Shown here piece after piece: positions 19,433 to 48,925 of a DNA stretch of 64,000 nt (position 1 is its first letter; the number at the start of each line of letters is the position of its first letter). The stretch covers positions 7,194,001 to 7,258,000 of the forward strand of contig OZ076409.1 of assembly GCA_964187785.1 (NCBI GenBank), given 5' to 3'. The position numbers and the translations under genes were made by a program. This DNA is from Amphiscolops sp. MND2022. Taxonomy: Eukaryota. A model generated the notes under the pieces. It was not told where the DNA came from. It did no database searches and saw nothing but the letters and a program-made list of their open reading frames with translations.

Positions 19433-19862
19433 TTTTTAGTCGGCGCTTTTTTAGAGAAAAGAGTCGACTACAGTCATGGCTTTTGTTTGGTCAGTGTTTT
19501 TTTTGATACACCTGAAGTAACCAAATTGTTCTACCAAAAGTTCTACAAAATGTACCTGTTGGCCCAAGGAACTGAACCAAAAAGGTTTCCCGCGTAACAT
19601 ACAATATCGGGAACTGTGCGATTTTTGTTTAATTTTTTTTCCAAGAAAGGGTCCCCCTTCACTTTTTTGGAGTTTTGCAACAGACTGGATGTTGAAAAAT
19701 CCCAAAGGGTCCCCCTTTCAGTTTTTTCGGCATTGCGAGTTTTTTTCAAAACTTTTTTTAATAAAAAGGTTCCAAATTCATCAGTGCTTTGACATTTTGA
19801 AGTCCTTTTGCTATTTTTGATCCTTAGATATGGCGCTGACTTAGGCCGGTCTCGGCTTGTTT
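19433..19862 (+). mobile_element. HINE/Helentron-like repeat (intact counterpart of the copy split by element 2)
   Basis: Both termini present; colinear with 24005-24251 + 38323-38573. Confidence 0.68.
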
Positions 19863-23007: not shown

Positions 23008-24251
23008 GACAGTCGATTTAGCCGACGAAAATTGCAAAGCGCAAAATCTTTCAAAATATTTATTTTATAAAACAGCCTCACGAGTAAACGTCATTGAAAT
23101 TTTAATAAAAAATACAACGGTAGTTTTTAGGAGTCGGAAAAAATTTTCGACTACTAATGCAATCGTGTCGTTTTTTGTTTTTTTTTCTCCCGACCTTTTC
23201 ATGAAAATTTCAAATTTCTCAAAAACCGTCCATACGGTTTTCAAAAAATTTTGCAGTCATTCTACACCCAAAGGGGCCCCTGCATGCTCCAAGGCATCAA
23301 AATCGTACGACTGGAATGTCAGAAACATAGCCAAAATTAGCCCAAAAATGGCCAAAAGACAGCCGCTTCTCGACTTTTTTGATTTTCGCAAAAACTGCCG
23401 ATAAGATTCGAACGAAACTTTGTACAGACCTTCTACACTATATTATGTTCCTTTGTGTGTAATTTCATCAAATTCTTTTTGCTGGGATGTGAGAAACATA
23501 GTCAAAATTAACCCAAAAATGGCCGAAAAACAGCCATTCTTCGACTTTTTTTGATTTTTGGTAAAAATTGTCCATACGATTCGAACGAAAACTTATACAG
23601 TCATTTTCTACACCATAGTATGGTCTATGTGTGAAATTTCAAGAAATTTGTATAACTGGGATTGGAGCGAGTCAGAAGGAAAAAGACCTAAGCTTTACGA
23701 CTCTGGTTTATATTTTGAAATCGTATCAAAATTAAGGTTTCGAAGAATTTTGGATATGTTTGAATTTTACTGAGAAAATACTGCCTTCGATCAGTTTTGT
23801 AGCTCTGACACCGTTCTTCAACTTTAAAATTCAAGCAAGAATTATGAAGAAAATTCGTTCTTACAATTGAGCAGCCAAAACCACTGTTGTAATACGGTAC
23901 ACTACCGAGTCCGAATTTATTCGTACCATCAAACTAAAATTCCCATCAAACTGAAAAAGGACATTCATCAACAAACTGTAGTCGCTCCGCTTTTTGTTGA
24001 TACATTTTCAGTCGGCGCTTTTCTTTAGAATCTTCAGTCGACTATCGTCATGGCTTTTCGTCAGTGTTTTTCTAAGACCACCTGAAGTAACCAAAGTAAC
24101 CTGAAGTTCTACCGAAAGTTCTACAAAATTTTGAGAAGATGCCAAAATGTACTTGATGGCCCAAGGAACTGAACCAAAAAGGTTTCCCGCGTAACGTACA
24201 ATACCGCGCGAGACCAAAGGGTCCCCCTTCTAGTTTTTTTTCGGAACTGTG

Positions 24252-25160
24252 TGTCGGAACGGGTCTCATGTCCTATTGAGACCGTATTGAGGTCGTTCCC
24301 TTCTCTATTGCTAGAGGAAATTTTCTCCGTAAGTATCAGCACGAGATTTGTTAACTCTGTTATCTGCCTGTTCATCTCAGAGAACCTTTGATTCGCAGAC
24401 AATTGTTCTGGTTCATTTCTACTATGTAGTAAGTTTCCGTCGTCGAATTCTCTAATCTGATCTCTGGTCAGTACTTCAGGAATGCTACTTTCGCTTTCGG
24501 TATCGCTATACCTGTCTATTCCGTCCATATTCGTAGGTGTTTTTTTGATCGTCTTGGATCTAGTATTGACCATAAATGAAGATGTAAGAGTTTGAAGTTT
24601 TATTGGTTATTGTAGGCAATAAGTTGACAAATGTTGAAATTTGTAATATCAATATTCTGATGTAGTAAGCAACTGCACGTTTCTAACTATCCAATTTCTA
24701 CTGGTGGTACTATATTGTCTGGTGTCAATTATGGCGACGTTGGTCACGTGATCACATTCACCAATCATATTCTTGCGTTCATTCACACCTTGGTTGGTAA
24801 TTGCGCAATTTGAGTATTAGTTTAACACTGCACTGGAATATAATGTACTTTCGTTACTATGGTTACATGACTCACTAGTTGGTATGTTCGCACAGCACTG
24901 CAATGTGGTTATGCTATTTACATCTATGACTAGATGTTTGTATATAAATGGGGGTTACATGACTAACTGCATTGAATTGAAATCTGATGATGGCGTGTCA
25001 ACTACATCATATAATCTATCATGAAGTTGTTTTGGAAGGTACATGAAGCAAATTTTTGATTATGGTTGCAGAATAGCGAAACTATTTGAAAAACTAAATA
25101 TGAATGGTTTATGTGAAAGTTTTGAATTTCAGATTTGATGATGCTGTTTGGTTAACTACA
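24252..25160 (-). repeat. 3' LTR of element 2 (909 bp); encodes 107 N-terminal Gag codons from ATG 24573
   Basis: Minus strand TGTAGTTAACC...CCGACA, preceded by a PPT; repeated at 37120-37303 (direct) and 37413-38322 (inverted). Confidence 0.85.
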
Positions 25161-25184
25161 TTCTTTTCCTTCATCTATTCTCCC
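25161..25184 (-). promoter_or_regulatory. Polypurine tract of element 2
   Basis: GGGAGAATAGATGAAGGAAAAGAA directly before TGTAG; second copy at 37389-37412 on the plus strand. Confidence 0.75.
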
Positions 25185-26240
25185 GTATCGCTGTTGGTTT
25201 GTTTCCTTTCTTGGATGTTGTGTAGTTAACCACATCTTTATTCGGTATTCTCATGCATCAGGCATGGCACTTCGGGTCTTTTTTGAAAAAAAACATCTAG
25301 TGGGGATGGCAAATAGTTTCTTCGCATTGTAGGAGGAATTAGACGCTGTTTTTCCAATGGGCAAAGCTGAACTCGGTTGTATTCTTTGATTGGAGATAAC
25401 GGCGATGTTGTCATAGTAACCACATTAGTAGTGGTTATTCGGTATTCGTGGCTGAAATGGTCGGTTCGTTAATATGCAGGCCGATTTGGCAAGCGAGAGG
25501 AAGAAATTGAATTCGCGCATTGACTTTACCACTTCGGTCGAGAGTAAAGAGTAGTTTGATGTGGCGAGGATAGCCACGTCATCCAGTTGTGCGCATTGTT
25601 ATTAGCAGTAGTGGTAGAAGGAAGTTGAAATCGCCGGAAATTACCTAACGTGGCAGCGTAATATAATTTCTCGGGTTATTCGGTAATTGTTCGGAAGTGA
25701 AAGCAGTGGAACGTCGTGCGCTTTGTAAACAAATCTTCGTGGACGCCAAATACGAGTGATCGAAGTAAATTTTTGCATTAATTGAATTGTTGCTAGTTGG
25801 AACTGCTGTTAGATATTGAGCGGTATACCAGGTTAAAGAGAGCTAAACGATATGGTTTGTTTTGAGATATTGGTCCACACATTCATGAGGGAGTCGTCGT
25901 TCTTTTTTCTGTAGTGAATTATTACAGTCGTCGTGAGGTTTGAGATCATCCAAAAAGGGGGTGACCAACAGTTCCGGTCATGTTGCGTGTTCTTTTTCGG
26001 GTAAAAAATTTAGCGATCTTTGAAGTTCGAACGTTGTCGTTCTTTGAGCATTTGGTGGTCAGATGGTCTTTTTTTCGACTAGTCGTTGACAATAGTCTAC
26101 CATTCGTGGAGGATGAGGGTGATCAGTCCTCATTCCATATCACAATAGACGCTGAAACCTGGTAGATCGCAAATTTTTTCCCTAGATAGTGTTTAATTTG
26201 CGACACTGCTTATTATTGATAGTTATCTCTTGTTACGTGA

Positions 26241-29200
26241 ATGGCCGCAGAGGAGTTATCAGAAGAAGAAGTCGCTTGTGAGGGCTGCGGAAGGAGCATT
26301 TACTGAATTACCCAGTTTGGATTGCTCGTCAGATGAGGAAGGACTCGAAGCTTTGGTTGGAGAGTTACTTGAAGGTGAAGCCCGTCCTTCATGTTGTCAG
26401 TTTGCTCATCGGGTGAACGCGGCCAATGTGGATGCTGCTACGATATAGCTGGAAATTGCCTTGTCCAGTGAATTCCGTAAGTACCCAAACTTTTTGCGTT
26501 TGTCTTCTTGTCTTTGTGGCAGTCACAAAATGAGGGTAGCTGCAAATCGGGTGTAAATAGTCGTTGAGCTCATCATGGTAATGTGCATTTGTGCACAGCG
26601 TCGTTAATGCAGGGTGTGATTAACTAGCGGCACTCTTTTAAGCTCTTCCCGGGAACTATTACCTTGGGTAGACTGTCAAAACGTTGTTGCTGATTCTGTT
26701 GATTTCAGTAATAACGTTTCCCTATGTGTGTTGCAGAAGCTTTGAATATGACCGATATCGTGTCCATGTTACGACGCATGCTTCAGTCTAAAGAGTCATC
26801 AGCTGACGTATCTTCCATGGGTGCATGCGAGGTCGGGCTCAGGGATCATTTCTACCCACAGTGTGGTAAGTTTGCGACTTGGTATTTTCTGTATGTAGTG
26901 CTGTAAGGTAGTGCTTCGTCTCGTTCTGCAAGGCTTGGGGTTGTGATAGGGGGTCATCGTTGCAACGTATGGTTGATAACGTAGTTGCTTACACTGGGTA
27001 ATGTGTTTCAGGTGTTGCAGGTAGTTCCGCATTGAGCGTTGACGATATCGTAGCTTCCATTAACCGTCTGGAGAAGGAGTTAACAGGTGTGGTAAAGGCT
27101 ACGGTCGAACCCAGCATGGGCCAGTTAGGGACTGTAGGTGCGATGGCTGTTGTTGAACTTGTCAGGCAATTGAACGTAGCGGTGTCGCAGTTAGCACCTG
27201 TCAGTGGATTGCCCACGGTCGCGCCCGGGGACATGTGTCGGTGATGCCGTTATTACCAGTCGGTTCTTTGTCAATTGGATCGGGTGTTCCAGTAATTCCG
27301 TCAGTTGCCAGTCGTCAAGATTCAGTAGCGCCATCATTGTTCGGTGAGAGTGCTGTCATCGGACCAAGCAGTGTGGCGAAGTCGACTGCTAGCAAGCCTG
27401 GTAAGAATCTCAAAAGATCATGGGAGGGGTTTTACTTTTTCAGGCACTAGGATTTACCATTGACGTTTGAAACAGTTTTTTTAAGAGTCTATTCAGCATA
27501 TTCAGGTTTGCATGTTTATTTTAGTGCGTGCTAAGAGGGTCAAGACGCCGAAGCCGTCTTACTTCGTTTCCAGCGTTGTGGGGACCTTCGTTGGCTTCCT
27601 CCGCAACAAAGGAGTAATTGATGGGTACGCTCGTTGTCTGCTATGTCGGGCGGACTTAGTTATTGCTGGGTGCGGTATCTCGTCTCTGTGGAGTCATGGG
27701 AAGGGTGTGGAGCACACCCGTTTAGAACAGAAATACCGAATCATGACTCACCGACCGCTATTAGACAAGGCTTGCAGACCGGTATCTGCTGAAGAGGATC
27801 GACGAATCAGACGTGCCAGATTGACAGAGCCTCCAGATTTCCTGGAAACTGATATAAATCTGACTGTGGAGGAGCGCATGGCGATTGAAGAGGCGGACGC
27901 AGAGGAAGGAACACGACCGCATTTATCAGACGGGAGTGTGAGCTACTTGTGGTTGAGCAACTTTATTTCGAGCATTCTAGTTTACAAATCCTTCGAAGGA
28001 GTACTTCAGTCGTTAGATGTTTGGCGTAATTGTATGGCAAACGAACTACAATTTGAGTGTCGAACGATGGAATACGCGCGGTGTCAGGTAGATATGCGCT
28101 TTTGTGTTTCTTATATGTCGCGGATTATTGTTTTTTGTTGTTGTTGGTAGTAGAATCGTGTATATTGGGGTGATTGCGGTTTCTTTTGTTGGTTTAATGT
28201 CAATGTCTTGATGACGTTGCTTGTTGCTATTTAGAGGCTGGTGCTGTATGGGTGCTATCCGTATGTTGTGGAACAACTAGATGCATTGGTAGATTCGAGC
28301 TCATGCATTGGTGTGAGTATTCGACAGAGTGACTGGCAGTGGCGTGGTGAGCTTCACATCATCGGAGATCACGGTGTGAAGTCGATTGTGCTCGCTCTAG
28401 TTCCCGGGGGTACTGGATGGGAGAGGAGAATGCTGAACAATGTGGTTCCTTTACTTGCTTGTCTGAAGGACAGATCCCTTTTGAAAACTGTGGCAGTCGA
28501 AGGAGATACACACTTTGGTCGGGCAGTAGCTGGAATGGTTTCTCCTAAGACGCCGATTGTGGTTGGGCTTTTGACGGCAAAATCAGTGTTTAACGAGGTA
28601 CAAAAGCAGTTCCAGATGGAATTTTCGGGACTTGATCCGCTCAGTGTGTTAAAATACTTTCGTGTGAGGATGATGCCCGTGGTTCATGAGAGTTTCTTGT
28701 ATCAATTACCCTTGTTACGACAGGTGAATATGTTATTGCGTATTTTGACCATTTAGGTATTGATATTTTTTTTCGGATTTAGGTGAGGTATAAGACTTGT
28801 GTAGATGTACAATCGTTCTGGTAGTGATGATGAACTAATTTTTGTTTGTTGTTCTAGTGTATACGAGTCTGTGGAGAGGACGTCTCTCAGTTGGCGCTAG
28901 TCTGTGCGGAAGTTGTGGAGTATTGGAACGATTTGTCTTTGTACTTTGGGACTCACAGGCCTAATGTTACTTTGGAATTGCGGCCAATCACTCCACTGGA
29001 ATGCCAGGTGTTCGAGGATGCCATTGTCCGGCCCCGATTTGCTATCTTGCGGCTTGTTCTGGACTTAAGTAAGTATGAATTATTTGATTGTTTTTCAATG
29101 GGGTAGTGTTTTCTCTCTTTTTTTTGTTTTCCCTCTTTTGTCTTTTTTTGCTGATTTTTAGTAGATGTCTGGGATTAGTTTCGGAGCTGGGGGTATGGTT

Positions 29201-30340
29201 AGTCCTCTCAGCCGGGCACGTTATTTTTTAATTTGTGTTGCAGTGGTGAAGCATTGTCCTCGACTGTGAAGACGTGGTTGTGACTACGGCTTGTTGTTGA
29301 ACGAGAGCTAGCACAATTCCTTCGCAGATTGATGAGATTCATCAAGGTTCTGATGATCGTCGTGTGGATTCGTTGGTGGAAACTTGTGCTGTTTTAACTG
29401 CCTATGGACTCGTTGAATTAGATGATGGCGGCGTAGTGCAGCAGCAGTACAGGGAGATCACTCATTTCTTCAGAAAACGATGATCGTTTTCAACAGATGA
29501 GATGCCAGCTGTAGAAGACATATTCGCCTTATGGATGTCGAACCCTCATTGGGGGCGATGTGAGCAATTGCGACAAATTGTAAACCTAGGGTTCAAAGTG
29601 GTGGTTGTCAGCGCGTACCGTACTGATTTTGCTGATAGTGTCAGTGGCGCTCTGGATCCTGATGAACTCTCGTCAAGTCTGCATTTAGTTCGTACCTGGT
29701 TTGGACATTCGTTTATTGGAAAATCACGCCGTGATCTACGTGGCCTATTACGAATTGCCGCGACAGCAGATATGCAAGTTTCTCGCTTGTCCGATAGCGT
29801 TCGTGCCAAGCCGTGGGATCAGCTACTTGAAGTTGGATTGGATCACACTCTATCTTTCTGCGTGACGTTGCTGGACAAAGGACCTGAGACACCTGTAGTT
29901 CCTGTGGTCGATGAGTATAGATCGACAATTCTCGCTCAGTTGAATGTTATGGAAGTAATGGCAACTAGTCCTATCCGTGCTTCCCCTAATCTTACAGCAA
30001 TGCAGTCTGGCTCTGGTTCAAAGTCTAAAAGGCCTCGTAGTCAAACCGATGTGAGACTAAAAACTCCAGAGAAAAACGCTAATGTGGCTGTAGCTACTAC
30101 ATCTAAGTCTACCGTACGGTCAAGGACCCGTGTAACTAGTCGTGGAGGTAGTGGAAAGAGAACGTGTTCTGCGAGGGACGTCGATCAGGTGGGAAACCCC
30201 AAAGTAGCAAGACGTTAGTGCTATCTGTGGCTGCTAGTGGTTCAGTAGATCAGGGGATCAGACATCCGATGGATTTTGGCGGGGCCTAATCGCAAGGGAA
30301 GACGGGCAACGAGAGTCGAGTCGTCTGACGAGCCTTGAAG
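26241..30340 (+). pseudogene. Antisense multi-exon BED-finger/hAT-transposase-derived gene inside element 2 (decayed)
   Basis: CLLC...LWSHGKGVEH zinc finger; GT-AG introns 28088-28234, 28724-28857, 29069-29243 plus upstream ones; homologous to 48926-52863; stops and frameshifts present. Outer limits approximate. Confidence 0.8.
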
Positions 30341-31910
30341 GAACAAAAATGTGCGCCATTTTGTATTAAACTTCTTACTGATGTATTTGCATTAGTTTTT
30401 TCTGGTTTTGTGCTTTGGCGGTTTTGTATTTTGTAAATATGAACTTTTACTGTTTTTTTCTCTTGCCTTACCCTTATACTGGGTATTTGATATTTCATAT
30501 GTGGATTTTACATGTGTTGTTTCATGTACAGTTTGTGTTGTTGGTTATTTACTTGATTTGCTTTGGGTTTGAAGCGTGGGTGAACTTTAATTTACTTGTT
30601 GCCTATGTTATACAAATTTTTTGACCTATTTTGCATGTAATCTTCGTTAGCTGGTCTCAAAATGTTAGAGCGGTAGGCTCAGCTTTGTAAATCGTTCATG
30701 TTCTAGTAGAGTAGTCGCTTTCGTGACTACCATTGAAAAGCTCTCACTCACAATGCTCCATCGGTAAGTCAGCGTTGTTCAATTTAATAGCTTACATATG
30801 ACACAAATGGAAACTTGGTGGGTGGGTGGAGCCGCTCTGCTCCTATAGATGATTTGAACGTGTTGAGTGGTTGCTTTTATACTACTCTAGTCGGTTTTTT
30901 GACGGCTGTTCATAAACTTAGGTGTCATTTTGAGATGTCAATTACTTCGGATTTTACATATGTTTGTCTTACATGAAGCGTTCGTTCTGACGTCGTCATC
31001 GCTGATGTGTGTCTTGCGACGTCATCATTCGTGACGTGTGTCAAGTGTTAACGCAAATTCAATGGCAAATGGGTTTCCCCATGCCCATTAAATTTTTTGG
31101 CAAGGGGTTGGCACGCACCATCCCTTTTTTCGGATTTTCGGTCATGTTGTGAGAGTAACTGCATGTGCTTAATTATCTTGTTCTTTCTGCCGCGAGGCGA
31201 AGCCTACAAACCACCAGTAAGAACAAAGGCGTCACGACTTAGGTCGAAATGGGGGTGACGACTGCATGTTACTGTCCTAGGAATAGACTTATTTGTTTTC
31301 GTTTAGTTGGGAAGGTTATTTGCCGTCGCAAAAACCCATTCAAAACTAACACCGAATCCACTTGCTAAAGAGCAAGCTTCATCTGAATGTTTGCACAACC
31401 ACACAGACGCGCTTTTGATGACGCACCCACACAGCCGAACCACATCATGGTTTTTCGGGGCGGAAGTGTGAGTCTAGATTTTTGTGACGTAACTTAAGCG
31501 AGTCAGCTGTTTCTTTTACGTTCTCGATTGTGAACTGTGACGTTTGTAAAGGTAACTTAACGTAGTTGATTCAGAGTTGGTGGGTACAAAAATGCAAAGC
31601 AATTCCTTTGAAAGCGTGTGGTTGAGATTCTTCGTGAATTGCATAATTTAGTAGCTCGTTTGCATGTCTTTTACATGTACTTAACAATTTCCGGTTAGAG
31701 TGATGTGTTGCATATGACTGCATTACATGTATTTACTTTCGCGCTCAGCTGTCTGTATAGAGAGTAACAATTTACTCTGCCGGTAAACTCGAGTATGCAG
31801 GACAGTGAGTATCAGTCGTCACTGAATGGTGTAACGTAAATAGAATACTTCAATGGTATGATTGGTACATGTGGTGATATAGACTACATTGTATTGATTG
31901 CATGTTTTTT

Positions 31911-34900
31911 CTATTGGCTTGCAGATTTGCGTTGCATGAATTTCAAAAGTGCGGGCTTTGCTTGCAGTACTTGAACAAGGACGTTATCAAACGTTTTAGA
32001 CACAGGTGCTTCGCGAAGGCTATATCTGGTAATATTGTTTCGTGTGATCGGTTGAGACGTTTCGGCAGGTGATGTGGTCGATGCCGCATCATTATTTGAC
32101 AGAATTTGCTGTTCCGACTCGTGATCAGGTGTCGGTGTGTCTATTTCGTCTGGTTGGGTTTCAGGTTCAGTTCGGTGCGTACGGTCGTTGTGGATGGTTT
32201 CAGGGAGCGGGTTTTACAGAGGTGGGACCTCATGAACCCGTTTGTGCTCATAATAAATTGTTCCATGCTCAGAATCGATTATTTCAGTTTCGTTTGTGTC
32301 GAGTTCAAATGAGTTTTCAGCCGGCGGTGTTGGTTCGGGTGCAGGTAGATTGTCGTTGAATATTGACTCATCGTCAATTGCGTCGTTGGGTCACTGTAGT
32401 GTCGCGCTGCATCGTCGTGTATGTCTTCAACCGGGTCATGTGGTACGAATGGGCGGAACCGGCATTCTATGTACACACTGCGTTTTGAAGGTACCGACTT
32501 TTCTGACGATATAATTCGATTGTGTCAGGACCTTAACCACTTTGCAAGGTCCTTCACATTTGAAGGAGTTAAAAGGGGTTTTTTTCCGATTGCGTGCTAA
32601 TTTTAGGATTCAGTAAAAAGACAAAGTTGTTTACTTTTAATGGTGATGCTTGGGCTTTTCGATCATAGTACGCTTTGTACTTATGGAAGGCTCGGATTAT
32701 GTTGGTATGAGTTTTTTTTAATTTGGCATTCAGATTGTCCACTAACGACTGTGTATCAGTGGCATTTCTCGGTGAACTGAGAGGGTTGCCAAATTTTAGG
32801 TCTAGTGCGTTGTATGGCACGCGGCCATGGAAAACTTCCGTTGGTGAACATTTCAGAGTTTGGTGGTAAGTCGTATTGTGCGCCATGACAGCGAGATTGA
32901 CGTATCGGTCCCACTGTGGGCGTTCTGCGGAGACGTTTATTTTCAGAATCTGTTTCAAACGTTGATGCGACCTTTCGATCATCCCAAAAGTTTGGGCATG
33001 TTTGATTGTCGCGTGGGAGACTTACATCCCGGCTTTGTCCATCAGTTCTGTTATGACTTGCGATGTGAAAGCAGAGCCTTTGTCAGTGATGATGTGCTTC
33101 GGTACATATGCATGTTTCGTGAAAAAGTTTAGCAGGGCGTCAACGACGGATTTAGTATCAGGTTTACGGATCGGATTAGCAAACAGGTGCCGTGAGAAGT
33201 AGTCACAGGCCGTCAGAATGTGTGAGTACCGATTAGATTGCGGTAACTCACCGACGAGGTCATTTTCCAGGACATCTTCAGGACCGTTGCAGCGGTCATA
33301 GATTGGTTCAAGTGGTGGTGTTCCCGAGCTGGGTTTTATAGGTTTCGCTTTAATACAGTCTAGGCAGTTGTTAACAAACTTTCGAACTTTTTCGGCTAAG
33401 TTCGGGATGTAGTACTTTTTCTTGAGTTCACCAAACATTTTTGAAGCTCCAGTGTGTCCCTGCATGGGGTCGCCATGCATCGTCCTGATTATGGCTTCCG
33501 TAGTTTCTGGAGGAACTACAATTTTTCGGTAAGCTAAGTTTTCTACGTTGTCGAAAAACTGTCTGTACAAAACGTTGTTGACGACTTCAAGTCTTTTACG
33601 GTTTTTGAAAAGTTTTTGGAAAAAGGTACTTGCAAAAGTAACTTGGTTTGGAGGGGTTTCTTGCGCAGTAAGGATCCTAATTACCCGTTGAACGTCACTT
33701 TTTTCGCCTTGAGCCTTAACAATTTCTGAATTCCCCGAAGGGCATACCTGATTTACCGTGTGAACCTGGTTCCGTTGGTAGAATCGGGTGAAGAACAGTG
33801 TTGGATCAGAGGGCGTCACAAACGGTTGCACCTGTCGGTTTTGATGTCGTCAATGCGTCTACAGTACTGTTCGTCGTCTTCGTGACGCCATTGAGGGAAC
33901 ATCGCCAGGAGTGACTGCATTGTCGGGTTCGGTGATGTTGTTGCGTCAGGCACATTCGTCTCGTCTGGATTGTATTCTTCCTCCTAATCATCTTGCTTAG
34001 GCGTTTTTGATGCCAGATCAATCTCGACTTTGAAGACTGGTATCTCATCATGTAGTTTGAGGTGGATTCTGTTTTTCGGGTGGATGTCGATTCTGGACAG
34101 GTAGTCAGCTGCTGGATTTTCGACTCCAGGTACATGGGCCAGAACGAAGTCGAAATGGAGGGCTTGATCACAGTAGTTCCATAATTTTGGTGGTATTCCT
34201 TTGGACTGGAAGAATCTTGTGAGAGCTTTGTTGTCAGTCATGACAATTGTTGGTTTCTTCACTCCCCACAGGATATGGGCGAACTCGTCAAATGCGAAGT
34301 GCATGGCCAGGATTTCTTTCGCGTACATCGTGAGTGACATTTTGCCCTCGGTGAACCTTTGAGATCCAAAGGCTACTGGTGCATATGACTTCGTTGGTCC
34401 ATTGTTGGTTTCAGTATAGTCTTCGATCAGAAAAACGTAGCCGGTTGCGTGCTCGCTAGCATCGCACATAATCACTAGTTGTTTGTCCGGAAGTGGTAAT
34501 CGCAGGGACATCTTGGCAGCATTTGCGAGGTTCTCGTTGATATCGAATATGGCGTCTTTGTGGATCTGGGTGAGTTCGTACTTGACATCTTTCAGTAACA
34601 ACTTGTATAGTGGGACCAGTTTCTCAGCTAGCCTCGGGATGTACTGACAGTAGAACTGTACAAATCCAATAAACCGTTGTAGTGACTTCACAGACGTCGG
34701 CAGTTTGATGTTCTCCAGAAACTTTTTCTTCGATGAGCGCGATGCCTTTGGTAGTGATGCTTCTGCCAAGAAATTCGAATTCGGGGTGACCAAAAGCACA
34801 CTTCGCCATTGACAGCTTCAGACCGGCCTGTCTGATTTTGTTGAATACTGCTTCAATGTTGTTGACTAGCTCTTCGACAGTGTTGGCGGCAATGCCGATA

Positions 34901-36025
34901 TCGTCAACGTATTGTGCGCATTTGTCTGCCTTGACGAAGGGGTCCAAGTACTCACGGACAGTACTGTTGAAGGCTGACAGGGACCGGTTCAAGCCCTGGG
35001 CTAATCTGAGGAAGGCGAAGGTTCTACTTCCAAAGTTGAACGCAAGCAACTGGACTGACTGTTCATCCGCCATCTGAAGGCAATGGTACGCCTATGAACA
35101 ATCCAACTTGCAAAAGTAACGTTTGCCGGCCATGTGTTGCGCTGCATCGGCCATCGTTGTCACAGGGTGGTTGTGTTGATTGTAATCGTTCTTCAGTAAG
35201 TGATTAATTCTTCTGAGATCGACCAGGATCCTGAGTTTTCCGTTTGGCTTGCGTTGGGCGAAGATAGGCGAAGTGTATTTACTATACGGTATTGTGGTGA
35301 TGATACCGTACTCTTGCATCAATGCCAATTCCACCAATAAATCGTCTTCAAATTTGTTGGTGTGGGCAAGCTTTGGACATAAACTGGTTCGTGGTGTTTT
35401 GGAGTCAACTTCATCTTGAGTTCGGTGTTGATCCCGATATCCAGTCTGTGTCTCGCGAAGATGTCGTGGTAATTGACCAATAGTGCCTCGATCTCTTGCT
35501 TCTCATGAGGGTTCAGTATTGATTGTTCCCACTTGAAGTTCGCCAAGAATTCTTGTCGTTGTTCCTCACTTGATGTTGGGTCCAGTTTTTCTTCAGCTCT
35601 GAGTTTGACGATCTCGTCGTAGATGCGTCTCTCAATCTTGTTGAGCTTTGACGGGTCGTCGCATGTCTCAGGGGTGGGTACCATCGTCTGTCTGTTTTCT
35701 CATTTGGGTCCTGGAAGTTGTGGTTCAGAACTGCCGTGGCCTCGTCTGGGTATTGCGTGATCAGGTTGAGTTGGTGGCTCGTCATCGGTTGCAGATTGTT
35801 TGCCTGTTTTGGAGTCATAATTTTGAATGACGCCACTGCTGTCCCCACATTGATCGTGATCTGGTAATCTAGTTGGTTGGCGATCTGCACATGGGATCGT
35901 CCCTCTCGGGTCTCGCTGAGAGCCGGAGATACCAGTAAATGTGAACGCCTCTCGAAGGCGGGTAGTCCTTCCACGGTACCAGTGATGTTTCCCAGATCTC
36001 GTTCAATTACCACTGGGACGAACAC
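31911..36025 (-). pseudogene. pol of element 2 (dUTPase-like, RT, RNase H, integrase; protease deleted; many frameshifts)
   Basis: ORF fragments 35513-36025, 35319-35684, 35092-35337, 34624-35073, 33984-34799, 33022-33831, 32569-32982 align to the 45255-48692 protein; ends RYSLREAP...stop at 31911. Confidence 0.92.
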
Positions 36026-37303
36026 TTGTTCTTTCTGAAGTCCTTTCTGAACTGTCTATTTTCTTCCGTTGGCTGTTTGGTATACGGAACACTTCTGTAA
36101 GCTGAGGTGGTCGTGTTCCTGTGATAACAGTCTCGAGCAGAGTGTCCCACCGTTCCGCAAATTTGACACACGAGTTTTGAGTTATACTTGGGTCTGTTGT
36201 CTGGGTTCTGGGTAGCTTGGGTTGGTTGCTGTGGTTTTTGACTGGCGGGTTTAGCTTGTGCTTCTTCTCGCAGTCGTTTCTTGCATTCCACCCACTTGTG
36301 TCCATGTATGCCGCAGTGACGGCACTGCCCGTCGAACTTTCTTTTCGTCTCTCTGTTTTGTTGGGGTTGGACGATTGATGTCGGAGGTGTGGCTGCATTT
36401 GGTTGTGGTGCACGTATTTGGTTGAACGGTTGGGCATTTGTAGTGTTCTGGAGGAGTTGTGCATACTGACTTCTTCGTTGCACGAACGTCCTGATTTCTT
36501 CCATGGTGGCGTCATGTTTTCCCGCCATTGCCAGTTCATTCTGCATATGGACTGGAAGTTTCGCGAACAGGAATGTTTCTGTTAGGTCGTTTGACCTATC
36601 GCCAAAAGCTTGTTTTGCTACTTTCTTAAACTTGTTGAGAAAGTCGTTAAATGTTTCAGTTGCGGGGTCGTACCGCATTTGGTCAATTGTGTATTTGGCC
36701 ACCTCTTCCAGGTCCTCTTTGGCATACTCCTTCTTGAAATAACGTAATACTTGGGCGAGTGTTGTTTGAGTTATTATTTTCAGTGATTGCCAGAATTCGA
36801 TGGCGTCATCACGGAACAGGCTTTGAAAATACGTCAGTTTTGTTCTTCTGACAGTTTGTGTTGATGTGATCGGAGATGATTTAGCAAGAGGTGCTCGAAC
36901 TTGTTGTATTTTTCCCTGTTTCCCCGGAAGAGCGAGACTTGGGTTTGTAGGATTTTCGGATGTTGCAGGTTATCCGACACTGTCATGGCATTGTATACCT
37001 CAAGTGATGGCTTTCGGTCACGATGTCCTCCATTTGGTTGGTGGATGACTGAGGGTATTTTGAAGTGGATTGTCGTTGTGGGTTCGTCTGCGTGTTACTG
37101 GTGGTTGCTCCTGTCACCATGTCGGAACGGGTCTCATGTCCTATTGAGACCGTATTGAGGTCGTTCCCTTCTCTATTGCTAGAGGAAATTTTCTCCGTAA
37201 GTATCAGCACGAGATTTGGTAACTCTGTTATCTGCCTGATCATCTCAGAGAACCTTTGATTCACAGACAATTGTTCCGGTTCATTTCTACTATGTAGTAA
37301 GTT
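36007..37303 (-). pseudogene. gag of element 2 (frameshifted; N-terminus lost in the LTR rearrangement)
   Basis: Capsid-like LFAKLP; knuckles CRHCGIHGHKWVEC and CQICGTVGHSARDC; joined directly to the dUTPase-like region near 36028. Confidence 0.88.
37107..37119 (-). promoter_or_regulatory. PBS of element 2 (TGGTGACAGGAGC)
   Basis: Directly follows the LTR end CA; identical to the element 3 PBS; resembles the complement of a tRNA-Leu 3' end (inference). Confidence 0.85.
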
Positions 37304-38322
37304 GCCATGCCTGATGCATGAGAATACCGAATAAAGATGTGGTTAACTACACAACATCCAAGAAACGAAACAAACCAACAGACGATACGGGAGAATAGTT
37401 GAAGGAAAAGAATGTAGTTTACCACACAGCATCATCAAACCTGAAATTCAAAACTTTCACATAAACCATTCATATTTAGTTTTTCAAATAGTTTCGTCCA
37501 TCTGCAACCATAATCATAAACTTGCTACATGTACCTTCCAAAACAACTTTATGATACACTATATGATGTAGTTGGCACGCCATCATCAGATTTCCATTCA
37601 ATGCAGTTAGTCATGTAACCATCATTTATATATAATGTTCTAGTCATACGATGTAGGTAGCATAACCACATTGCCGTGCTGTGCGAACATACCAATTAGT
37701 GAGTCATGTAACCATAGTAACGAAAGTACATTATATTCCAGTGCAGTGTTAAACTAAAACTCAAATTGCGCAATTACCAACCAAGGTGTGAATGAACGCA
37801 AGAGTATGATTGGTTGATGTGGTCACGTGACCATCGTCGCCATAATTGACACCAGACAATATAGTACCACCAGTAGAAATTGGATAGTTAGAAACGTGCA
37901 GTTGCTTACTACATCAGTATATTGATATTACAATTTTCAACATTTGTCAACTTATTACCTACAATAACCAATAAAACTTCAAACTCTTACACCTTCATTT
38001 ATGGTCAATACTAGATCCAAGACGATCAAAAAAACACCTACGAATATGGACGGAATAGACAGGTATAGCGGTACCGAAAGCGAAAGTAGCATTCCTGAAG
38101 TACTGACCAGAGATCAGATTAGAGAATTCGACGACGGAAACTTACTACATAGTAGAAATGAACCAGAACAATTGTCTGTGAATCAAAGGTTCTCTGAGAT
38201 GAACAGGCAGATAACAGAGTTAAGAAATCTCGTGCTGATACTTACGGAGAAAATTTCCTCTAGCAATAGAGAAGGGAACGACCTCAATACGGTCTCAGTA
38301 GGACATGAGACCCGTTCCGACA
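37304..38322 (+). repeat. Inverted copy of the element 2 3' end (pre-PPT sequence, PPT, full LTR 37413-38322)
   Basis: Reverse complement of 24252-25268, joined to a 184-bp U5 remnant (37120-37303). Confidence 0.9.
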
Positions 38323-39528
38323 CTGTGCGACTTTCGTTCAATTTTTTTTCCACCAAAGGGTCCCTCCTTCAATTTTTTTGGAGTTTTTCAACAGTCTGGA
38401 TGTTGAAAAATCCCAAAGGGTCCCCCTTCCAGTTTCTTCGGCATTATGAGACTTTTTTCAAAACGTTTCTTCATAAAAGGGTCCCCAGTTCACCAATACT
38501 TTGACATTTTGATGTCCTTCTGCTATTTTTGATCCTTAGATATGGCGCCGACTTGGGTCGTTCCCGGCTTGTTATACACATATGTGTATTATCTTTAGTT
38601 CTGTTACGGAACCATTATTGCTACCATTTTGAAAGAGTATAGTTTGGCATACAAAAGAGATCAGTACTTAAAACTTGTTTTCATCTAACCAAGTAGAAAT
38701 TGAACACTTGTAATTTCGTCGAAGCAATATTTTACGGAGTAAAAATTGAACAATATGCATAAGCTGATCATTTTGCGGTGTAAATTCTTCAGAGGGCGTT
38801 TTCAGAAAATGTTTTAATTTCAAAAGTCAGAGATCAGAATCGAAGTGGCAAAGTTTGTGCCGAACACTTTTTGCGAAGAACAGCGCTTCTCGAGATAATG
38901 CATGATATCAAAATCCCAGAAGTCTAAAAATAACGAAGCGTTTTGTTAGTTTCTTTTGTTGTTTTTGTGTGAGTTCAAAACAGAAATAGCCCTGTTGCTC
39001 CAATTACTTTTGTGTCTAAGATTCTGTACAATTTTATTGCGATTTCAATCAAGTTGAGATTTGAAATTGAGTATCTTTAGCTTTTTTTGTATCCTGGTGA
39101 AGAAAAACGTGAAGAGAGTGTAATAAACTCGTGTGAAATTTTTGCAAGATTATGCAAGATTATGCAAGAAGCAGATTACGCTGTTTGATTCGTGCTTACT
39201 ACAAAAGGAAAATTTGAAAGAAGAGAACCATTATTTGTGTTTTTTTTTAGATTGAGATGACCCTATTTTGGTTTCTTTCAAAAGAAGTCAAATTTGATAC
39301 ATTAAACATCAAGCATGATAGAGCTTATTAGTACTGTTTCTTAAGCTAATAAAACTATACCGCATTTTTGAAAATCAAATTTCGTTAATGGCAAAACAAT
39401 GTCATCTTGCAGTGTTCCCAGTTTGGTTTTTGATTGGTGGAGACTCTTGAAGCACCCAATAGTCTTTAAAAGAGATTTTGAAGTTTCTGAAAATTTACTG
39501 CCTTGAATGTGAGGTTGTGTTTTCTCAG

Positions 39529-40377: not shown

Positions 40378-40563
40378 TGTTACTTTTGTCTTGGCTTTTT
40401 CCTCAATGTAGCGTGAGTTTTGGGCCAATGCTTTTAGCTGGTACTGAAATTGTCAGACTATTAAAGTCATTTTTTCAAAACACACCAATGCGATGTAAGC
40501 GGCTAGGGCGGCAGAAATGGCAATTAGCATGTGGTTAGCGCTTTGGCTTCCCCTTCTGGTGTT

Positions 40564-40740
40564 TTTTCGGAACTGTGCGACTGTTTCCAAAAAAACTTTT
40601 TTTTTCATTCCACCAAAGGGTGCCACTTTGGTTTTGTGAAAGCTTTATCTTTTGTCAACTAAAGTCACCACAAAACCAAAGTGGGACCCTTTGGTGGAAT
40701 GAAAAAAGTTTTTTTGGAAACAGTCGCACAGTGCCGAAAA
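40564..40740. repeat. Fold-back inverted repeat (~75-bp arms, ~30-bp spacer)
   Basis: 40564-40638 is the near-perfect reverse complement of 40669-40740. Confidence 0.85.
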
Positions 40741-40897
40741 AATAATGCTAAAACTTTTATGATGAAGCAAGGCTCAAACAGCTCAGAGTGTTTTATATAA
40801 GCACAAAGGTATTTCGGTGTAATCTGAAAAATCTCACGGTGTTGAAAATTTTCAAAGGAGGAACTCTTTGATCTCTTACAAAAGTGCCTTTGGTATG

Positions 40898-42469
40898 TGT
40901 CCCAGGCGTCCGCCTGTGATGGAAATCTTTATGCAATTAGTCACGACTACAGGAAGGCGCAGCCCAACACCCTCCCACTGAATTAAGTCTTACAAGCAAA
41001 ACTATATTTGTTGCCTTAAAAGTCATGTAAAATCCTATATATTTCATTTTGTACAAGCTATATTATGTAATTCTATGTATTAATACGAGTTAATTGGACA
41101 CCAAGGCGTACAGGTAAAGGAAACGCGTTCAAATGTTTTCTTGCCTGTCGCCTTGGTCCGCAAGTCCGATTAACTCGTCATCCAATCATAGCGCAGTGTT
41201 ATGTAACCTTTACTCGTGCTAGCATAATAGATTAAAGGACCAGACAGCTATATGCCGCCTGCTAATAAAACGCCGGGCTGTACCAGTCTATTGGACACTG
41301 AGTCCGCGCTTTAATTGAGAGTGCTATTCTAACTAGCAGTACTGGTTATGTAATAATTAATCTTTTGATAACTAATAAAAGGCGCTATTGGTCCTCAAAG
41401 GACTGATTTAATATTTTAGACTTAGTTTGATGGTGTTGCTTCGTATGTAATTTGCGCAATATATTTAGTTTAGAATATATGTAAAATTACTATCTATACA
41501 TGTAGTAAGCATTTCATACATGTAATATGTATTTCATACATGTAGTACGTTGCTTAGTATGCATGTAAGCAGTTGCTTGTCCTAACGGACTCATGGTCCC
41601 GCCGCCATATTTGCCGCCAAGAGGGACCTTTGATCTATATGATGTAATGTTGACGTTGCCTGCTATTTATAGATTGTAGCTATATTTAGAAAGCCCTTAA
41701 GGCTATTTTTAGAATATGATCACCATTTTATTGAGTGTCATGTAGATTCAAATATATATAACCGGGACTGGTGGTCCCGGGGAGAGAATTATTCTGATGA
41801 TACTTTGATACGTTACTGTTGCATTACTGTTGCGAATTGTTTATTAAAACTACCCGTTCATTTTCACTTTGCAAGCCCGAGATATTAATTTAAATTCTTG
41901 CCTCTTGCAATAATCTCTTATGCATTCTACTAGACGTCAAAAGGCTAAAGCTAGGAGATCTAGAGAAATGGACATGCTGTCCGACTATGATAACCTAGAC
42001 GTGATGTTGGGAAATGAAAATAATAATCCCATTGAAAGAGAACTAGCCGATGTGATAGATCAGTCATCGGCCCACGGGGACGATGATACAAACGTGTACC
42101 ATGAAAATGAGTTTAGAGATTACTTACATGAAAATGAACCTTTGAGGCAAAATGAAGTCAGGCAATCCTTTGAGGCCTTTTCAAGTGAGTTTAATCTTAG
42201 ATTGTCTCAAGAAATGGAATCTATGATGTCAATAATGCATAGCCAAATAAATAGGGCTATAACAACAGCTATAGCTGAAAGAGTTATTCCAGAAATCCAG
42301 AATATTGCGAACTCGATGTCCTCTATGGGACACAGGGACACTGAGGCCAGTTCGTCCCCAAATAGTCAGGAGAACAGGGAAAGCGCACCCGGGCCTAAAC
42401 TAAAAATTGCAAAGAAAGATTCAAGATCTGTAGGTGACTTAAGAGATACCATAGGTCATGGTTCTTACA
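40898..42469 (+). repeat. 5' LTR of element 3 (1572 bp)
   Basis: About 11 substitutions and one TA indel versus the 3' LTR by eye; TATA-like 41753-41760; ATTAAA 41843; gag ATG 41920. Confidence 0.96.
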
Positions 42470-43609
42470 TGGTGACAGGAGCTACCGACACCCAACCGCA
42501 AATTCCCGAATTTCTGACCGGACGAATCCACTCAATCCCGAACCTAGAGAGACAACAATCCACACACAATATCTCTCTGGACACGACTCTGCCAGCCCCG
42601 GCCCCAGAGGCTCCTGAACCTCCTCAGGACCCGTTTAATAGACTAGCCGACGTATTGGTCAATTTGCAAAACAAACCGCAATCTATGACCATCAGACCCG
42701 TACAAACAACCCCGATGACATTTGATGGTAAAAGTGAAAAATTTGAGCTCTTTGAGGACTTGTTCCATACGATGATCAAAATGCAGCCCACAATGACAGA
42801 ACAAATGAAAATTAATCACTTTCATTCTTTGCTACGAAAGGGAGCATTACAGACATTCAGGAACATAAACTCAATCAACCGTCAAACTCTCGAGGACGTA
42901 CTGGTCATATTCCGGAGGAAATATGTCAAACCGGAATCACAAGCAACGGCAAAGCATAAATGGCACCGATTGACCTTCGATCCAAGTACAATGAAACTAC
43001 CAGACTTCTTGGAAGAACTGAACCAAGGTGCAGAAAAAGCATTTGGGGAAAACGCTAAAAGCATGATTGACAGCTTGTTATACGCGAAATTACCCCCAAA
43101 ACTGAAACGATCTGTCAACATGGCCCGTCTGGAGAACGGCACGTATGAAGAAATAGTCGCTCATCTTGAAAGAGAACTGGAACTCAATGCATTAGAAGAG
43201 TCAGATGATCTGCCAATGGCCACTATGGCCTCGGCGTCCACGAGCCATAACAATTTACTGTCCAATGGCATCAACACAAATAAAGACGCCCAATGCTCAT
43301 ACTGCAAGGCGACGGGTCACTATTACAAAAACTGCCCGAAACTCAAGAAGAAAAAGGAAACGGAGGACAAAGACGGTGAAAAAACCTCAGCGTCCAACTT
43401 ACCCACCGTGTGACACATGTGGCAAAAAGAACCACCCAACCGAAAGGAGCTGGCAAGGCGCTGGCGCCCACCTGCGACCCAAAAGGATGCAGACAGAACA
43501 AAATGACCGAAATGCTATAGACTCCGAAGGAAAGCCTAAAAAAGCAAATGACCCAGAAACGGCTACTTCAAGCCGACCCAATACTAAAAAATCTGATTCA
43601 AAAAACTAA
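41920..43609 (+). CDS. gag of element 3 (one frameshift near 43380)
   Basis: FDGKSEKFELFEDLF capsid-like motif; CSYCKATGHYYKNC; second, degenerate knuckle CDTCGKKNHPTERSW in the shifted frame. Confidence 0.9.
42470..42482 (+). promoter_or_regulatory. PBS of element 3 (TGGTGACAGGAGC), inside the gag frame
   Basis: Directly after the LTR end TTACA, where the 5' and 3' copies diverge. Confidence 0.9.
43600..43606 (+). promoter_or_regulatory. -1 ribosomal frameshift slippery site A AAA AAC
   Basis: Canonical X XXY YYZ just before the gag stop; the -1 frame continues into the 43612 ORF. Confidence 0.75.
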
Positions 43610-43611
43610 TT

Positions 43612-46600: not shown

Positions 46601-48692
46601 GTCCCGCATGGAAATGGACCCCACTGAAAAGTTAGTCCTAAAAATCCGAGCGGACGTTGAAACCCAACCTATTGAAGTTAATGTCCAATCAGCCGGCATG
46701 TCTGAAGAAGAACAAGTGTTCTTTACAGAAGAAGACAATGAAACAGAAGAACAAATTTGGGAAAGGAAAAAACAATCAAAAGCAGGACTCAAGGTCGATG
46801 AGACCGTCATCCAAATCGATACCATATCTGAAAATGTAGTAGATGAAATTACCAATTTCACTCAGAAACTACGCAGAACCAACCAAATACTACTAGAACA
46901 ATCCAAAGATCCGATCTTGCTTCATTTAAAAGCAAAAATTCAAAATGAAGAATACTCTGAAGAAATCCTTCAGCAGGACATTCGGTATAAACATTATTTA
47001 AATAACTTAGACCGTATAGTCCTCAAGGACGAAATAGTGACCCGACAGTATTACGACGAAACGGGACAAATCAAATACCACCAAATCTTACTGCCAAAGC
47101 ACCTGTTGAAAGAACTACTGCAAGCAATACATGGCACGGCACATCGACATCCAGGCATCTCTAAAATGCTGCAAGAGATCCGCCAAAAATACTACTACCC
47201 TGGCATAGCAAAATACGTTAAAAAATGGGTAGAAGGATGCGAAACGTGCGCTAGAGACAAAAGAGTCCCAAATAATACAATTACACCAGAATTGTTAAAC
47301 TTACCCGAATGGGACCTTGGTCCAGAAGATGCCATGCAGATAGACTTATTACCAAACTTACCGACTAGTGGCGGATACCAGACGGTGATGACGGCTATAG
47401 ATGTATTCTCAAGATACTTATTCGCCTACCCGCTAATTGAGGCAACAGCCACGAATGTAGCCAAGGTGATAATTGATATCATGACGAAACATTCATATTT
47501 ACCAACAACTCTCATCACAGACAAAGGGTCTGCATTTACATCGACCATCATAGCTGAGATAACTCAAATTTTGGGTATAACACTCAAATGCGCTACTACA
47601 AAGCACCCGCAAACAATTGGCAAACTCGAAAGGACCCATGCCTCACTCAAAACAAATTTGAAAATGGCCTCAGGGGAATATCGACGCCAATGGCATAAAT
47701 ATTTACCATTAGCAGTACTCAACTACAATACCACATACCACTCTAGTATTGGATGTGAACCGAGCAAAGTCTTCCACGGCCGGATTCCCTATAACGTCCT
47801 AGACCACAAATTGGGAAATAACCCCAATAAAAATTTTCTGCCAACTACAGAATTTGCGGAGGAAGTACAGCAGAGGACACAAATCCTCATTGATCAAACA
47901 AAAAAGAACATAATGCAGTCTTATTTGAAATATAAGGACTATTACGACCGAAAGGCAAAGGCTGCCCCGCTTAAAGAAAAGGACTACTGTTTTAATCTAC
48001 AGCCTAAAGCGGACAGTCAGGCATCAAAAATTCCTTTCAGGGAATACAGATGGATTGGCCCGTTCGTCATACAGAAAGTACTGTCCAACGACAATTATAT
48101 TGTCCGTCGCCTAAACACAAACAAAACTCAAATACTTCATCGCATTAGACTAAAGAAATTCGTCCCGAATGCCCCTTTAGAGGACAAATACGATGGAGAA
48201 AAATTACAACCTGACAATGAGATAGTAATCCCGCAAGACGATTTGTACACTATCTCATGGGAAGTAGACTTTGAGTACGACTTATTTGAACCGAGGAAGG
48301 AAAATTGGACAGACGTGGCCACACGCCGGCCGACGGACGCCGAGTCCACTAATACGGACAATGACGTTACCGACGAGGAAAGCGCTAGCAATGAAAGCTG
48401 CAGCGAGCGCACGACAAGAAATGACGTCACCGAGAAGCAAATGAGACCGCGAGAGAACAATAGCAGTGACGAACCGTCCCCGCCGAATGAAACGCCAAAT
48501 GGGACTGAGAATGAAAATGACGTCACTAATGATTTAAAAGATACGGAAAACGTTTCAAATACAGGCGCAGATATTACCGTGCCCGGAATATCAGAAAATG
48601 GAAATTCAAATGAAAATTCGAGCCCTAGAGGAGGGAAATACAATCTTCGACCTAACCCTACCCCCAACTTTACTGATGAATACAGATACTAG
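43612..48692 (+). pseudogene. pol of element 3 (PR, dUTPase-like, RT, RH, IN) with a frameshift near 43845 and an in-frame TAG at 45177
   Basis: LIDTGA, QYVDD, MTDAS, HGTAHRH...CETC, TDKGS, GKLER, WIGPF. Confidence 0.95.
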
Positions 48693-48925
48693 TCAGAAAA
48701 TTAAATTACTAGTCCCCTCCCTTTACTTCTAGCCCTTGAGGACTTTTATTTTTTACTTGGGACTACTCTGACTGATTTTTTACCGATTACTGAAACGATT
48801 ATATACAAAAAGAGAGACTCAGTGGCGAATAATACAAAGCCACGCAAACAAGCAACAAAGAAGAAATTATACAAAACAGTTTACAGAAACTACAAAGTCT
48901 AGAAACAAATGTACTCTTTGTACAT

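What the first reader, a model, noticed from the sequence alone, without database searches (positions are those of the whole stretch)
24247..38327. Element 2 integrated with two U5 ends (inverted termini) but a perfect 5-bp TSD
Both ends are the same LTR end (TGTCGGAACGGG...CCCGTTCCGACA), flanked by CTGTG, and the flanks rejoin into one host repeat, indicating a single insertion. The 5' LTR survives as only 184 bp (37120-37303). It is fused, near an AAGT microhomology, to an inverted ~1019-bp 3' end that includes the PPT. That inverted LTR differs visibly from the left LTR in U3 but little in U5, suggesting a sister template. Inference: an aberrant template switch or cDNA-cDNA recombination before integration, with integrase accepting a U5/U5 substrate.
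Basis: partly seen in the sequence, partly recalled or inferred. Interest (0 to 1): 0.7.

Follow-up and report, generated by a model that had tools for sequence, protein, structure and literature searches.

The report
Two-parent retrotransposon insert with inverted ends
A dead 14-kb gypsy-type jumping gene entered the genome in one step with the same tail end at both tips, and the two tips came from two different sister copies; it is a rare, readable copying accident, not a working element.

Summary
The structure is confirmed. A Ty3/gypsy element (24252-38322) ends in the same U5 tip at both sides, between two CTGTG copies. Its flanks rejoin in register into one host repeat. The 5' LTR is cut to 184 bp and joined at 37303/37304 to an inverted 3' end.

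The inverted piece came from a sister element. It differs from the left LTR at 34/696 non-coding versus 4/322 coding sites. Two of those four coding differences are shared with another family insertion (P0126), while the 184-bp piece keeps the left-LTR state. That argues against a self fold-back.

Best reading: two family cDNAs were joined head-to-head and inserted by their two U5 ends. The join may be a reverse-transcription switch (favoured) or end-joining or palindrome collapse after integration; these cannot be separated here. The LTR start is inferred (25160, with 25269 not excluded). The AAGT microhomology is one base out of register. No reads were examined, so misassembly is argued against but not excluded.

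The copy has lost its 5' promoter and gag start. This scan has noted similar inverted-end inserts in fungi and a diatom-like genome (unchecked notes).

The parts
24005..24246 (+). Left half of the interrupted host repeat (a dispersed repeat of about 450-490 bp; its ends look Helentron/HINE-like, label recalled and not tested)
   Evidence: 86% identical to two intact copies
24247..24251 (+). Target-site duplication CTGTG, left copy
   Evidence: single copy in the intact repeat at 19433-19861
24252..25160 (-). 3' LTR of parent A ('L'), 909 bp if it starts at TGTAG (25160); U5 tip faces the left flank
   Evidence: U5 end fixed by 82 family proteins with variable tails; start inferred
24252..24573 (-). 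gag N-terminal reading frame inside the LTR (ATG at 24573, 107 codons); the inverted LTR has it from 38001
   Evidence: 119 homologues; same design in element 3
25161..25269 (-). 109 bp upstream of the inferred LTR start, with the best polypurine tract at 25161-25184; alternative LTR start TGCC at 25269
   Evidence: 14 of 15 purines before TGTAG versus 12 of 15 before TGCC; degenerate repeat of internal 25447-25404, 1 of 500 shuffles as good
25270..32571 (-). Long accessory region with antisense ORFs (27485-28150, 28235-28756, 29484-30218, plus strand) of no known family
   Evidence: no Pfam hit; no Atlas hit for the 244-aa ORF
32572..35507 (-). pol in RT-RNase H-integrase order, broken over several frames and by a stop
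   Evidence: Pfam RVT_1, RT_RNaseH, Integrase_H2C2, rve; tblastn with element 3 pol
36007..36969 (-). gag remnant with zinc knuckle
   Evidence: zf-CCHC E 6e-4, just under the Pfam cut-off; 28% to element 3 gag
37108..37119 (-). Primer-binding site TGGTGACAGGAG abutting the LTR end
   Evidence: identical motif in element 3 at 42470
37120..37303 (-). Surviving 184 bp of parent A's 5' LTR ('F'); U3, R and the gag start codon are missing
   Evidence: same state as L at the two sites where the inverted LTR has family alleles
37303..37304 (.). Head-to-head junction between parent A and parent B sequence
   Evidence: 1-base exact homology, AAGT one base out of register
37303..37412 (+). Inverted 110-bp 3' internal piece of parent B, including the purine tract at 37389-37412
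37413..38322 (+). Inverted LTR of parent B ('I'), 910 bp; U5 tip faces the right flank
38323..38327 (+). Target-site duplication CTGTG, right copy
38328..38573 (+). Right half of the interrupted host repeat
   Evidence: 88% identical to the two intact copies

Best explanation
Two members of one gypsy family (A and B, about 4% apart in non-coding LTR sequence) were copied in the same particle. A was nearly finished. B's minus strand had run only about 110 bases past its polypurine tract. Reverse transcriptase switched in trans between A's strand, 184 bases into the 5' LTR, and B's minus strand, using little or no homology. This gave one linear DNA with a U5 end at each tip, which integrase inserted in one concerted step with the 5-bp stagger seen for element 3. 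SHOWN in the sequence: two U5 ends, the TSD, flanks in register, and the sister origin of the inverted piece. INFERRED: the LTR start, co-packaging, the stall, and that the join preceded integration. The product lacks a 5' promoter and the gag start, so it should be a one-off dead end.
For: TSD and in-register empty site. Related element 3 in the window also has a 5-bp TSD and the same PBS. Substitutions between L and I are 34/696 non-coding versus 4/322 coding (Fisher p 0.004; scan-corrected change point p 0.015), whereas element 3's LTR pair differs at 11 sites and one 2-bp indel spread over both parts. I's R75 and V100 occur together in P0126, an insertion with a different tail; R75 is in 1 and V100 in 3 of 120 other family proteins, and F has the L-type base at both. 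After removing those two, private changes are similar (L 1/322, I 1/322, F 3/184), as expected for one age. B's break lies about 110 bases upstream of the inferred LTR start, just past the purine tract, out of about 14 kb available, at the 3' foot of a weak predicted RNA stem. Co-packaged-template switching is documented: PMC1950507 (whole text), PMC5668417 (abstract), PMC9278108 (passages). Purified retroviral integrase inserts pairs of U5-mimic ends with 5-bp duplications: PMC3790719 (passages).
Against: No reads or second assembly of this locus were examined; the two window-encoded LTR proteins are single-member clusters. Microhomology is 1 base exact, and the junction ranks only 515 of 1400 positions for pairing with the growing end. 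The stem is weak (z -1.75; 9 of 200 shuffles fold as well). The junction also sits exactly on a TG/CA dinucleotide preceded by 12 of 15 purines, which fits an integrase-made join if the LTR starts there. Two searches meant to place the LTR start returned nothing useful. The sister-allele test rests on two sites and one protein. P0126 is otherwise 89% identical, the tree leaves L, I and P0126 unresolved, and no synonymous difference accompanies the alleles (3.3 expected at the non-coding rate, 0 seen).
Confidence: 0.45

Rival explanations
1. Same two-parent U5/U5 integration, but the junction was made by the host afterwards. Two cDNAs were inserted by their U5 ends, or as a U3-to-U3 head-to-head dimer. 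Their inner ends were then trimmed and end-joined, or the long palindrome collapsed by an asymmetric deletion.
For: Explains the TSD, sister origin and equal ages just as well. Short or absent microhomology fits end-joining. Long inverted repeats are unstable (PMC5932611, passage).
Against: Needs B to lose about 13 kb and A about 0.7 kb, with B's break falling by chance within about 110 bases of the LTR start (roughly 1% of positions under a uniform model; my estimate).
Confidence: 0.22
2. Misassembly, or two insertions in two different copies of the host repeat joined by a deletion.
For: No reads examined. The same contig carries an exact 442-bp tandem duplication at 56321-57204 that may be an assembly slip. 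The host repeat covers about 4.6 kb of the window.
Against: Two adjacencies that a normal element lacks would both have to be invented. L, F and I all differ by substitutions, so this is not a technical fold-back. The flanks rejoin to the base. Of 51 family LTR tails of 10 aa or more, only the window's own two match the host repeat strongly; the next best are E about 0.001, one of them (P0210) weakly on a repeat copy. Both halves are equally distant from intact copies, which is neutral.
Confidence: 0.1
3. The LTR really starts at 25269/37303. The inverted piece is then a whole LTR whose U3 tip was joined by integrase into the sister's 5' LTR (trans-autointegration); the dimer was inserted by its U5 ends and B later shrank to a solo LTR.
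For: The junction falls on CA/TG after a U-tract and 12 of 15 purines, one of 11 listed candidate sites in 8.2 kb. Autointegration inside particles is documented (PMC7197481, passages).
Against: 25160 has the better purine run and starts TGT like element 3. The 109 bp between the two candidates repeat an internal motif (1 of 500 shuffles) and have internal-like GC: 40% versus 43% upstream and 33% downstream; the GC step itself is weak. Needs an extra recombination step.
Confidence: 0.08
4. Sequential double insertion: B landed in A's duplicated target site in the opposite orientation, and a later deletion removed the centre.
For: Double insertion at one site is documented, including an inverted pair of Rover LTR elements with a target motif at the junction (PMC5932611, passages).
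Against: Needs strong site preference. Family tails are varied, element 3 sits in unrelated sequence with TSD GTATG, and L and I carry similar numbers of private changes.
Confidence: 0.07
5. A normal insertion whose 5' LTR was later repaired by copying from another family copy, returning exactly at the LTR tip through the shared ACA.
For: Explains the TSD and the sister origin of I.
Against: The second switch must land on the exact end of both LTRs with only about 3 bases of homology. I is no more distant from L or F in U5 than they are from each other.
Confidence: 0.05
6. Cis fold-back: one nascent minus strand snapped back on its own U5, copied 184 bases plus the tRNA, and served as the plus-strand strong stop.
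For: Gives exactly this anatomy using ordinary reverse-transcription steps.
Against: Predicts that F equals I. F has the L-type base at both sites where I carries family alleles, and the one site that F shares with I is the family state.
Confidence: 0.03

Closest known systems
Complex LTR-retrotransposon insertions made by abnormal template switching (Sabot and Schulman 2007, PMC1950507, whole text read)
   Same: One insertion with a 5-bp TSD, three LTR pieces, and two parent templates thought to be co-packaged; rare (2 of 400 Triticeae insertions in their Table 1).
   Different: Theirs are head-to-tail with complete LTRs, normal U3 and U5 outer ends and near-identical outer LTRs. Here the join is head-to-head, both outer ends are U5, the outer LTRs differ by 4%, and the product has no promoter for its genes.
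HIV-1 proviruses with asymmetric LTRs or inversions (PMC9278108, passages)
   Same: Integrated products whose two LTRs differ, attributed to strand transfer between two packaged genomes; a small share carried inversions.
   Different: In the passages seen, the LTRs stay in direct orientation; two U5 ends are not described.
Inverted tandems by double insertion, e.g. Rover in Drosophila (PMC5932611, passages)
   Same: Two family copies head-to-head or tail-to-tail at one site.
   Different: Those keep a target motif at the junction between termini; here the junction joins mid-U5 to internal sequence, with no central TSD.
Autointegration inversion circles (PMC7197481, passages)
   Same: Inverted LTR-to-internal joins made inside particles.
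   Different: These are circles without free ends, described as suicide products; this one is integrated with a TSD.
DIRS retrotransposons (search listing and abstract starts)
   Same: Inverted terminal repeats.
   Different: DIRS use a tyrosine recombinase. This element has a DDE integrase domain and a TSD, and its inverted ends are an accident of one copy.

Membership tests
Ty3/gypsy LTR retrotransposon | pol order RT-RNase H-integrase after a gag with zinc knuckle | tested here: met
   Pfam hits in that order on the minus strand; the zinc knuckle is just below cut-off
Ty3/gypsy LTR retrotransposon | PBS after the 5' LTR and PPT before the 3' LTR | tested here: inconclusive
   PBS-like motif found and shared with element 3; no tRNA in the window to match; two PPT candidates
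Ty3/gypsy LTR retrotransposon | Two LTRs in direct orientation at the termini | tested here: not met
   Outer LTRs are inverted; only 184 bp of the direct 5' LTR remain. The family is gypsy; this copy is aberrant.
Integrase-made insertion | CA ends and a 4-6 bp TSD of the lineage's length at one site | tested here: met
   CA at both ends, CTGTG twice, empty site in register; element 3 TSD also 5 bp
Template-switching complex (Sabot and Schulman) | Flanking TSD around a two-parent element with an internal LTR | tested here: met
Template-switching complex (Sabot and Schulman) | Direct, near-identical outer LTRs and two complete cores | tested here: not met
   Outer LTRs inverted and 95.8% identical; one core only
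Autointegration product | Internal junction exactly at an LTR tip (CA) | tested here: inconclusive
   CA is present at the junction, but the LTR start more likely lies 110 bp away; direct tests were blank
DIRS retrotransposon | Tyrosine recombinase instead of DDE integrase | tested here: not met
   rve and Integrase_H2C2 domains present; no recombinase hit in the ORFs scanned
Env-bearing errantivirus-like element | Sense-strand env ORF after pol | tested here: inconclusive
   No family hit for any accessory ORF, and the longest are antisense; broken frames could hide one
Real genomic structure | Reads spanning the junction and both flanks | not tested

The most novel reading that the evidence does not exclude
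Head-to-head U5/U5 inserts are a recurring, overlooked product class of LTR retrotransposons, missed by direct-repeat finders. They form by a switch between two co-packaged minus strands just past the PPT. Such copies could also be natural sources of double-stranded family RNA: a TATATAA box points inward in the inverted LTR (37632, minus), and a transcript from it that ran on to the left LTR would be self-complementary and could silence the family. This analogy to maize Mu killer is recalled, not looked up.
Probability: 0.15. Interest if true: 0.7.

Novelty: new variant of a known kind. Interest (0 to 1): 0.4.

Why it matters
If real, it is an in-genome record that a gypsy integrase will pair two U5 ends from two different family members, something shown for retroviral integrases with oligonucleotides. 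It also shows that strands from sister templates can be joined in inverted orientation. The in-LTR gag frame made it possible to assign the three LTR pieces to parents and to reject the simplest fold-back model, a test reusable on similar inserts. It is one dead copy, so it changes no view of genome function unless the class proves common or produces silencing RNA.

Tried and rejected
No whole genome is held for this window.

Relatives with DNA context: a metagenome scan with element 2's integrase found none among 432 candidates. An alignment-based scan gave 3 contigs of 1.0-1.5 kb from 412 candidates, too short to show LTRs. Viral contigs gave none among 322 candidates.

Placing the LTR start through small ORFs crossing either candidate boundary: no hit, and two unrelated repetitive proteins.

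Pairing energy does not single out the junction. The L/I divergence in the first 109 bp versus the rest of the non-coding part is not significantly different (2/109 versus 32/587, p 0.14). A protein tree of 15 rows did not resolve L, I and P0126; F, P0234 and P0235 were left out as too short.

Cis fold-back was my first favoured model and was dropped. DIRS-type inverted repeats were rejected on domain content.

Literature: nine completed full-text searches showed no listing describing an integrated LTR element with two U5 ends and a TSD. The library lacks most subscription and older papers, and I read only parts of seven, so this is not evidence that it is unpublished. Supplements were not read.
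Full report
OBSERVATION. A self-comparison of the window shows three related LTR pieces: L (24252-25269), F (37120-37303) and I (37303-38322). I is an inverted copy of L at 95.8% identity, and F is a direct copy of L's outer 184 bp. Both outer ends read ...CCCGTTCCGACA outward and are followed by CTGTG. Removing the element and one CTGTG gives a sequence that aligns through the junction to two intact copies of a dispersed host repeat. The copy at 19433-19861 matches across the single CTGTG but lacks 34 bases just left of it; the copy at 13753-14202 is colinear across the site. The 5-mer has a chance of 0.0009 by composition. The element is Ty3/gypsy: gag, RT, RNase H and integrase lie in that order on the minus strand, broken over several frames. 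Element 3 in the same window is a relative (65% amino-acid identity over the RT core) and serves as a control, with TGT...ACA ends, the same PBS and a 5-bp TSD, GTATG.

LTR ANATOMY. The gag frame begins inside the LTR, at 24573 in L and 38001 in I, so the last 322 bp are coding; element 3 is built the same way. A search with this 107-residue piece gave 119 proteins, two of them the window's own, and three more came from cluster look-up. Of these 122, 97 reach the LTR end, 15 run on into PBS and gag, and 82 have other tails. In 81 of the 82 the tail begins with a residue that an A-first codon can encode, as expected if the LTR ends in ...GACA. The U5 end is therefore secure.

The U3 start is not secure. 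The best purine run in 8.2 kb (14 of 15) ends at TGTAG, 25160. A second (12 of 15, after a U-tract) ends at TGCC, 25269, which is exactly the junction. Four things favour 25160: the TGT start, the better purine run, a degenerate repeat that the intervening 109 bp share with internal sequence (1 of 500 shuffles as good; six LTR control pieces scored at background), and a weak GC step. Two direct tests were blank. I put 25160 at about 85%.

WHOSE PIECES. L and I differ by 34 substitutions and 4 indel columns in 696 non-coding bases, against 4 substitutions in 322 coding bases (Fisher p 0.004). Mutation after insertion should not respect the reading frame, so most of the non-coding difference predates insertion. 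Family proteins then act as an outgroup. Codon 60 is a private change in L, codon 24 in I, and codon 68 in F. At codons 75 and 100, I has R and V where L has T and I. R75 occurs in 1 and V100 in 3 of the 120 other proteins, and the single R75 carrier, P0126, also has V100 and has a different tail. F has the L-type base at both sites. So F, the internal region and L belong to one parent, and I to another.

The limits of this test are real. It rests on two sites and one protein, some rows are probably one insertion recorded twice, and P0126 is otherwise closer to older lineages. The tree is unresolved, and no synonymous change accompanies the alleles (3.3 expected, 0 seen).

JUNCTION. Exact homology is one base. 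AAGT matches one base out of register, which 2.4% of random joins equal or exceed, in a test chosen after the fact. Pairing energy does not single the site out. The site lies at the 3' foot of a weakly predicted RNA stem (z -1.75).

MECHANISM. The two U5 ends, the TSD and the in-register flanks point to one concerted integrase reaction using a U5 end from each of two sister cDNAs (about 0.75 summed over three variants). The favoured variant (0.45) is a reverse-transcription switch in trans between A's strand, 184 bases into its 5' LTR, and B's minus strand just upstream of its PPT. That is the region of B left single-stranded once plus-strand synthesis has begun (established retroviral mechanism, applied here by inference). 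End-joining or palindrome collapse after integration (0.22) and an integrase-made join at a 25269 tip (0.08) give the same sequence. Sequential double insertion (0.07), later templated repair (0.05) and cis fold-back (0.03) fit less well.

Misassembly or two loci (0.10) would need two adjacencies that a normal element lacks, and the three pieces differ by substitutions. Of 51 family tails tested, only the window's own two match the host repeat strongly. No reads were examined, and an exact 442-bp duplication elsewhere on the contig is a reason for caution. The copy has lost U3, R and the gag start from its 5' end, so it should not propagate.

COMPARISON. The nearest published class is the template-switching complex of Sabot and Schulman (PMC1950507, whole text), which is head-to-tail with normal ends. 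Pairwise recombination between family members is frequent in Onsen bursts (PMC5668417, abstract). HIV-1 proviruses with unequal LTRs are attributed to transfer between two packaged genomes (PMC9278108, passages). Purified Rev-A integrase inserts pairs of U5-mimic ends with 5-bp duplications (PMC3790719, passages), and Ty1 integrase is active on either end in concerted assays, preferring U3 (PMC8487063, passages). So a U5/U5 substrate is not chemically surprising. Inverted tandems by double insertion (PMC5932611, passages) and autointegration circles (PMC7197481, passages) are the rival precedents. My nine searches of the held library showed no listing describing this exact structure, which is weak evidence. 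This scan's notes list similar inverted-end inserts in fungi and a diatom-like genome; I did not check them. They suggest recurrence but give no support for this locus.

VERDICT. Very probably a real, single, dead insertion: an inverted, two-parent variant of known aberrant LTR-retrotransposon products. It is a clear and testable scar rather than a new system. Interest 0.4.

Noticed in passing
window 24252-24573, 38001-38322 and 41920-42469: In elements 2 and 3 the gag reading frame starts inside the LTR, 322 and about 550 bases before its end, and runs through the PBS. Every 3' or solo LTR therefore carries an ORF that reads out into host DNA; 82 such read-out proteins were found.
   Followed up: partly
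window 40898-56469: Element 3: a young gypsy element (LTRs 99.2% identical, TSD GTATG) with an open 1170-aa pol ORF, a dUTPase after the protease, antisense ORFs of 390 and 733 aa and a 347-aa sense ORF running 29 codons into the 3' LTR, none with Pfam hits. At least 835 proteins match its RT-RNase H region at E 1e-30; all 120 listed are unnamed.
   Followed up: partly
window 56321-57204: Exact 442-bp tandem duplication covering the last 149 bp of element 3's 3' LTR, its TSD and 293 bp of flank; either very recent or an assembly slip.
   Followed up: no
window 13614-58501, many copies: Dispersed host repeat (about 4.6 kb of the window) with short subterminal inverted repeats, a 3' palindrome and internal tandem units; resembles Helentron-associated HINE/DINE elements (label recalled, not tested).
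   Followed up: partly
window 1631-4828, minus: A third, distant gypsy-like pol (26-27% to element 3), with no LTR pair seen in the window.
   Followed up: no
window 24941 (plus) and 37632 (minus): The clearest TATATAA box of the LTR points antisense, toward the element's antisense ORFs. In the inverted LTR it points across the junction into PBS and gag; the inverted LTR also has a sense-strand match at 37629.
   Followed up: no
window 40562-40742: A 181-bp imperfect palindrome (86%) just left of element 3.
   Followed up: no
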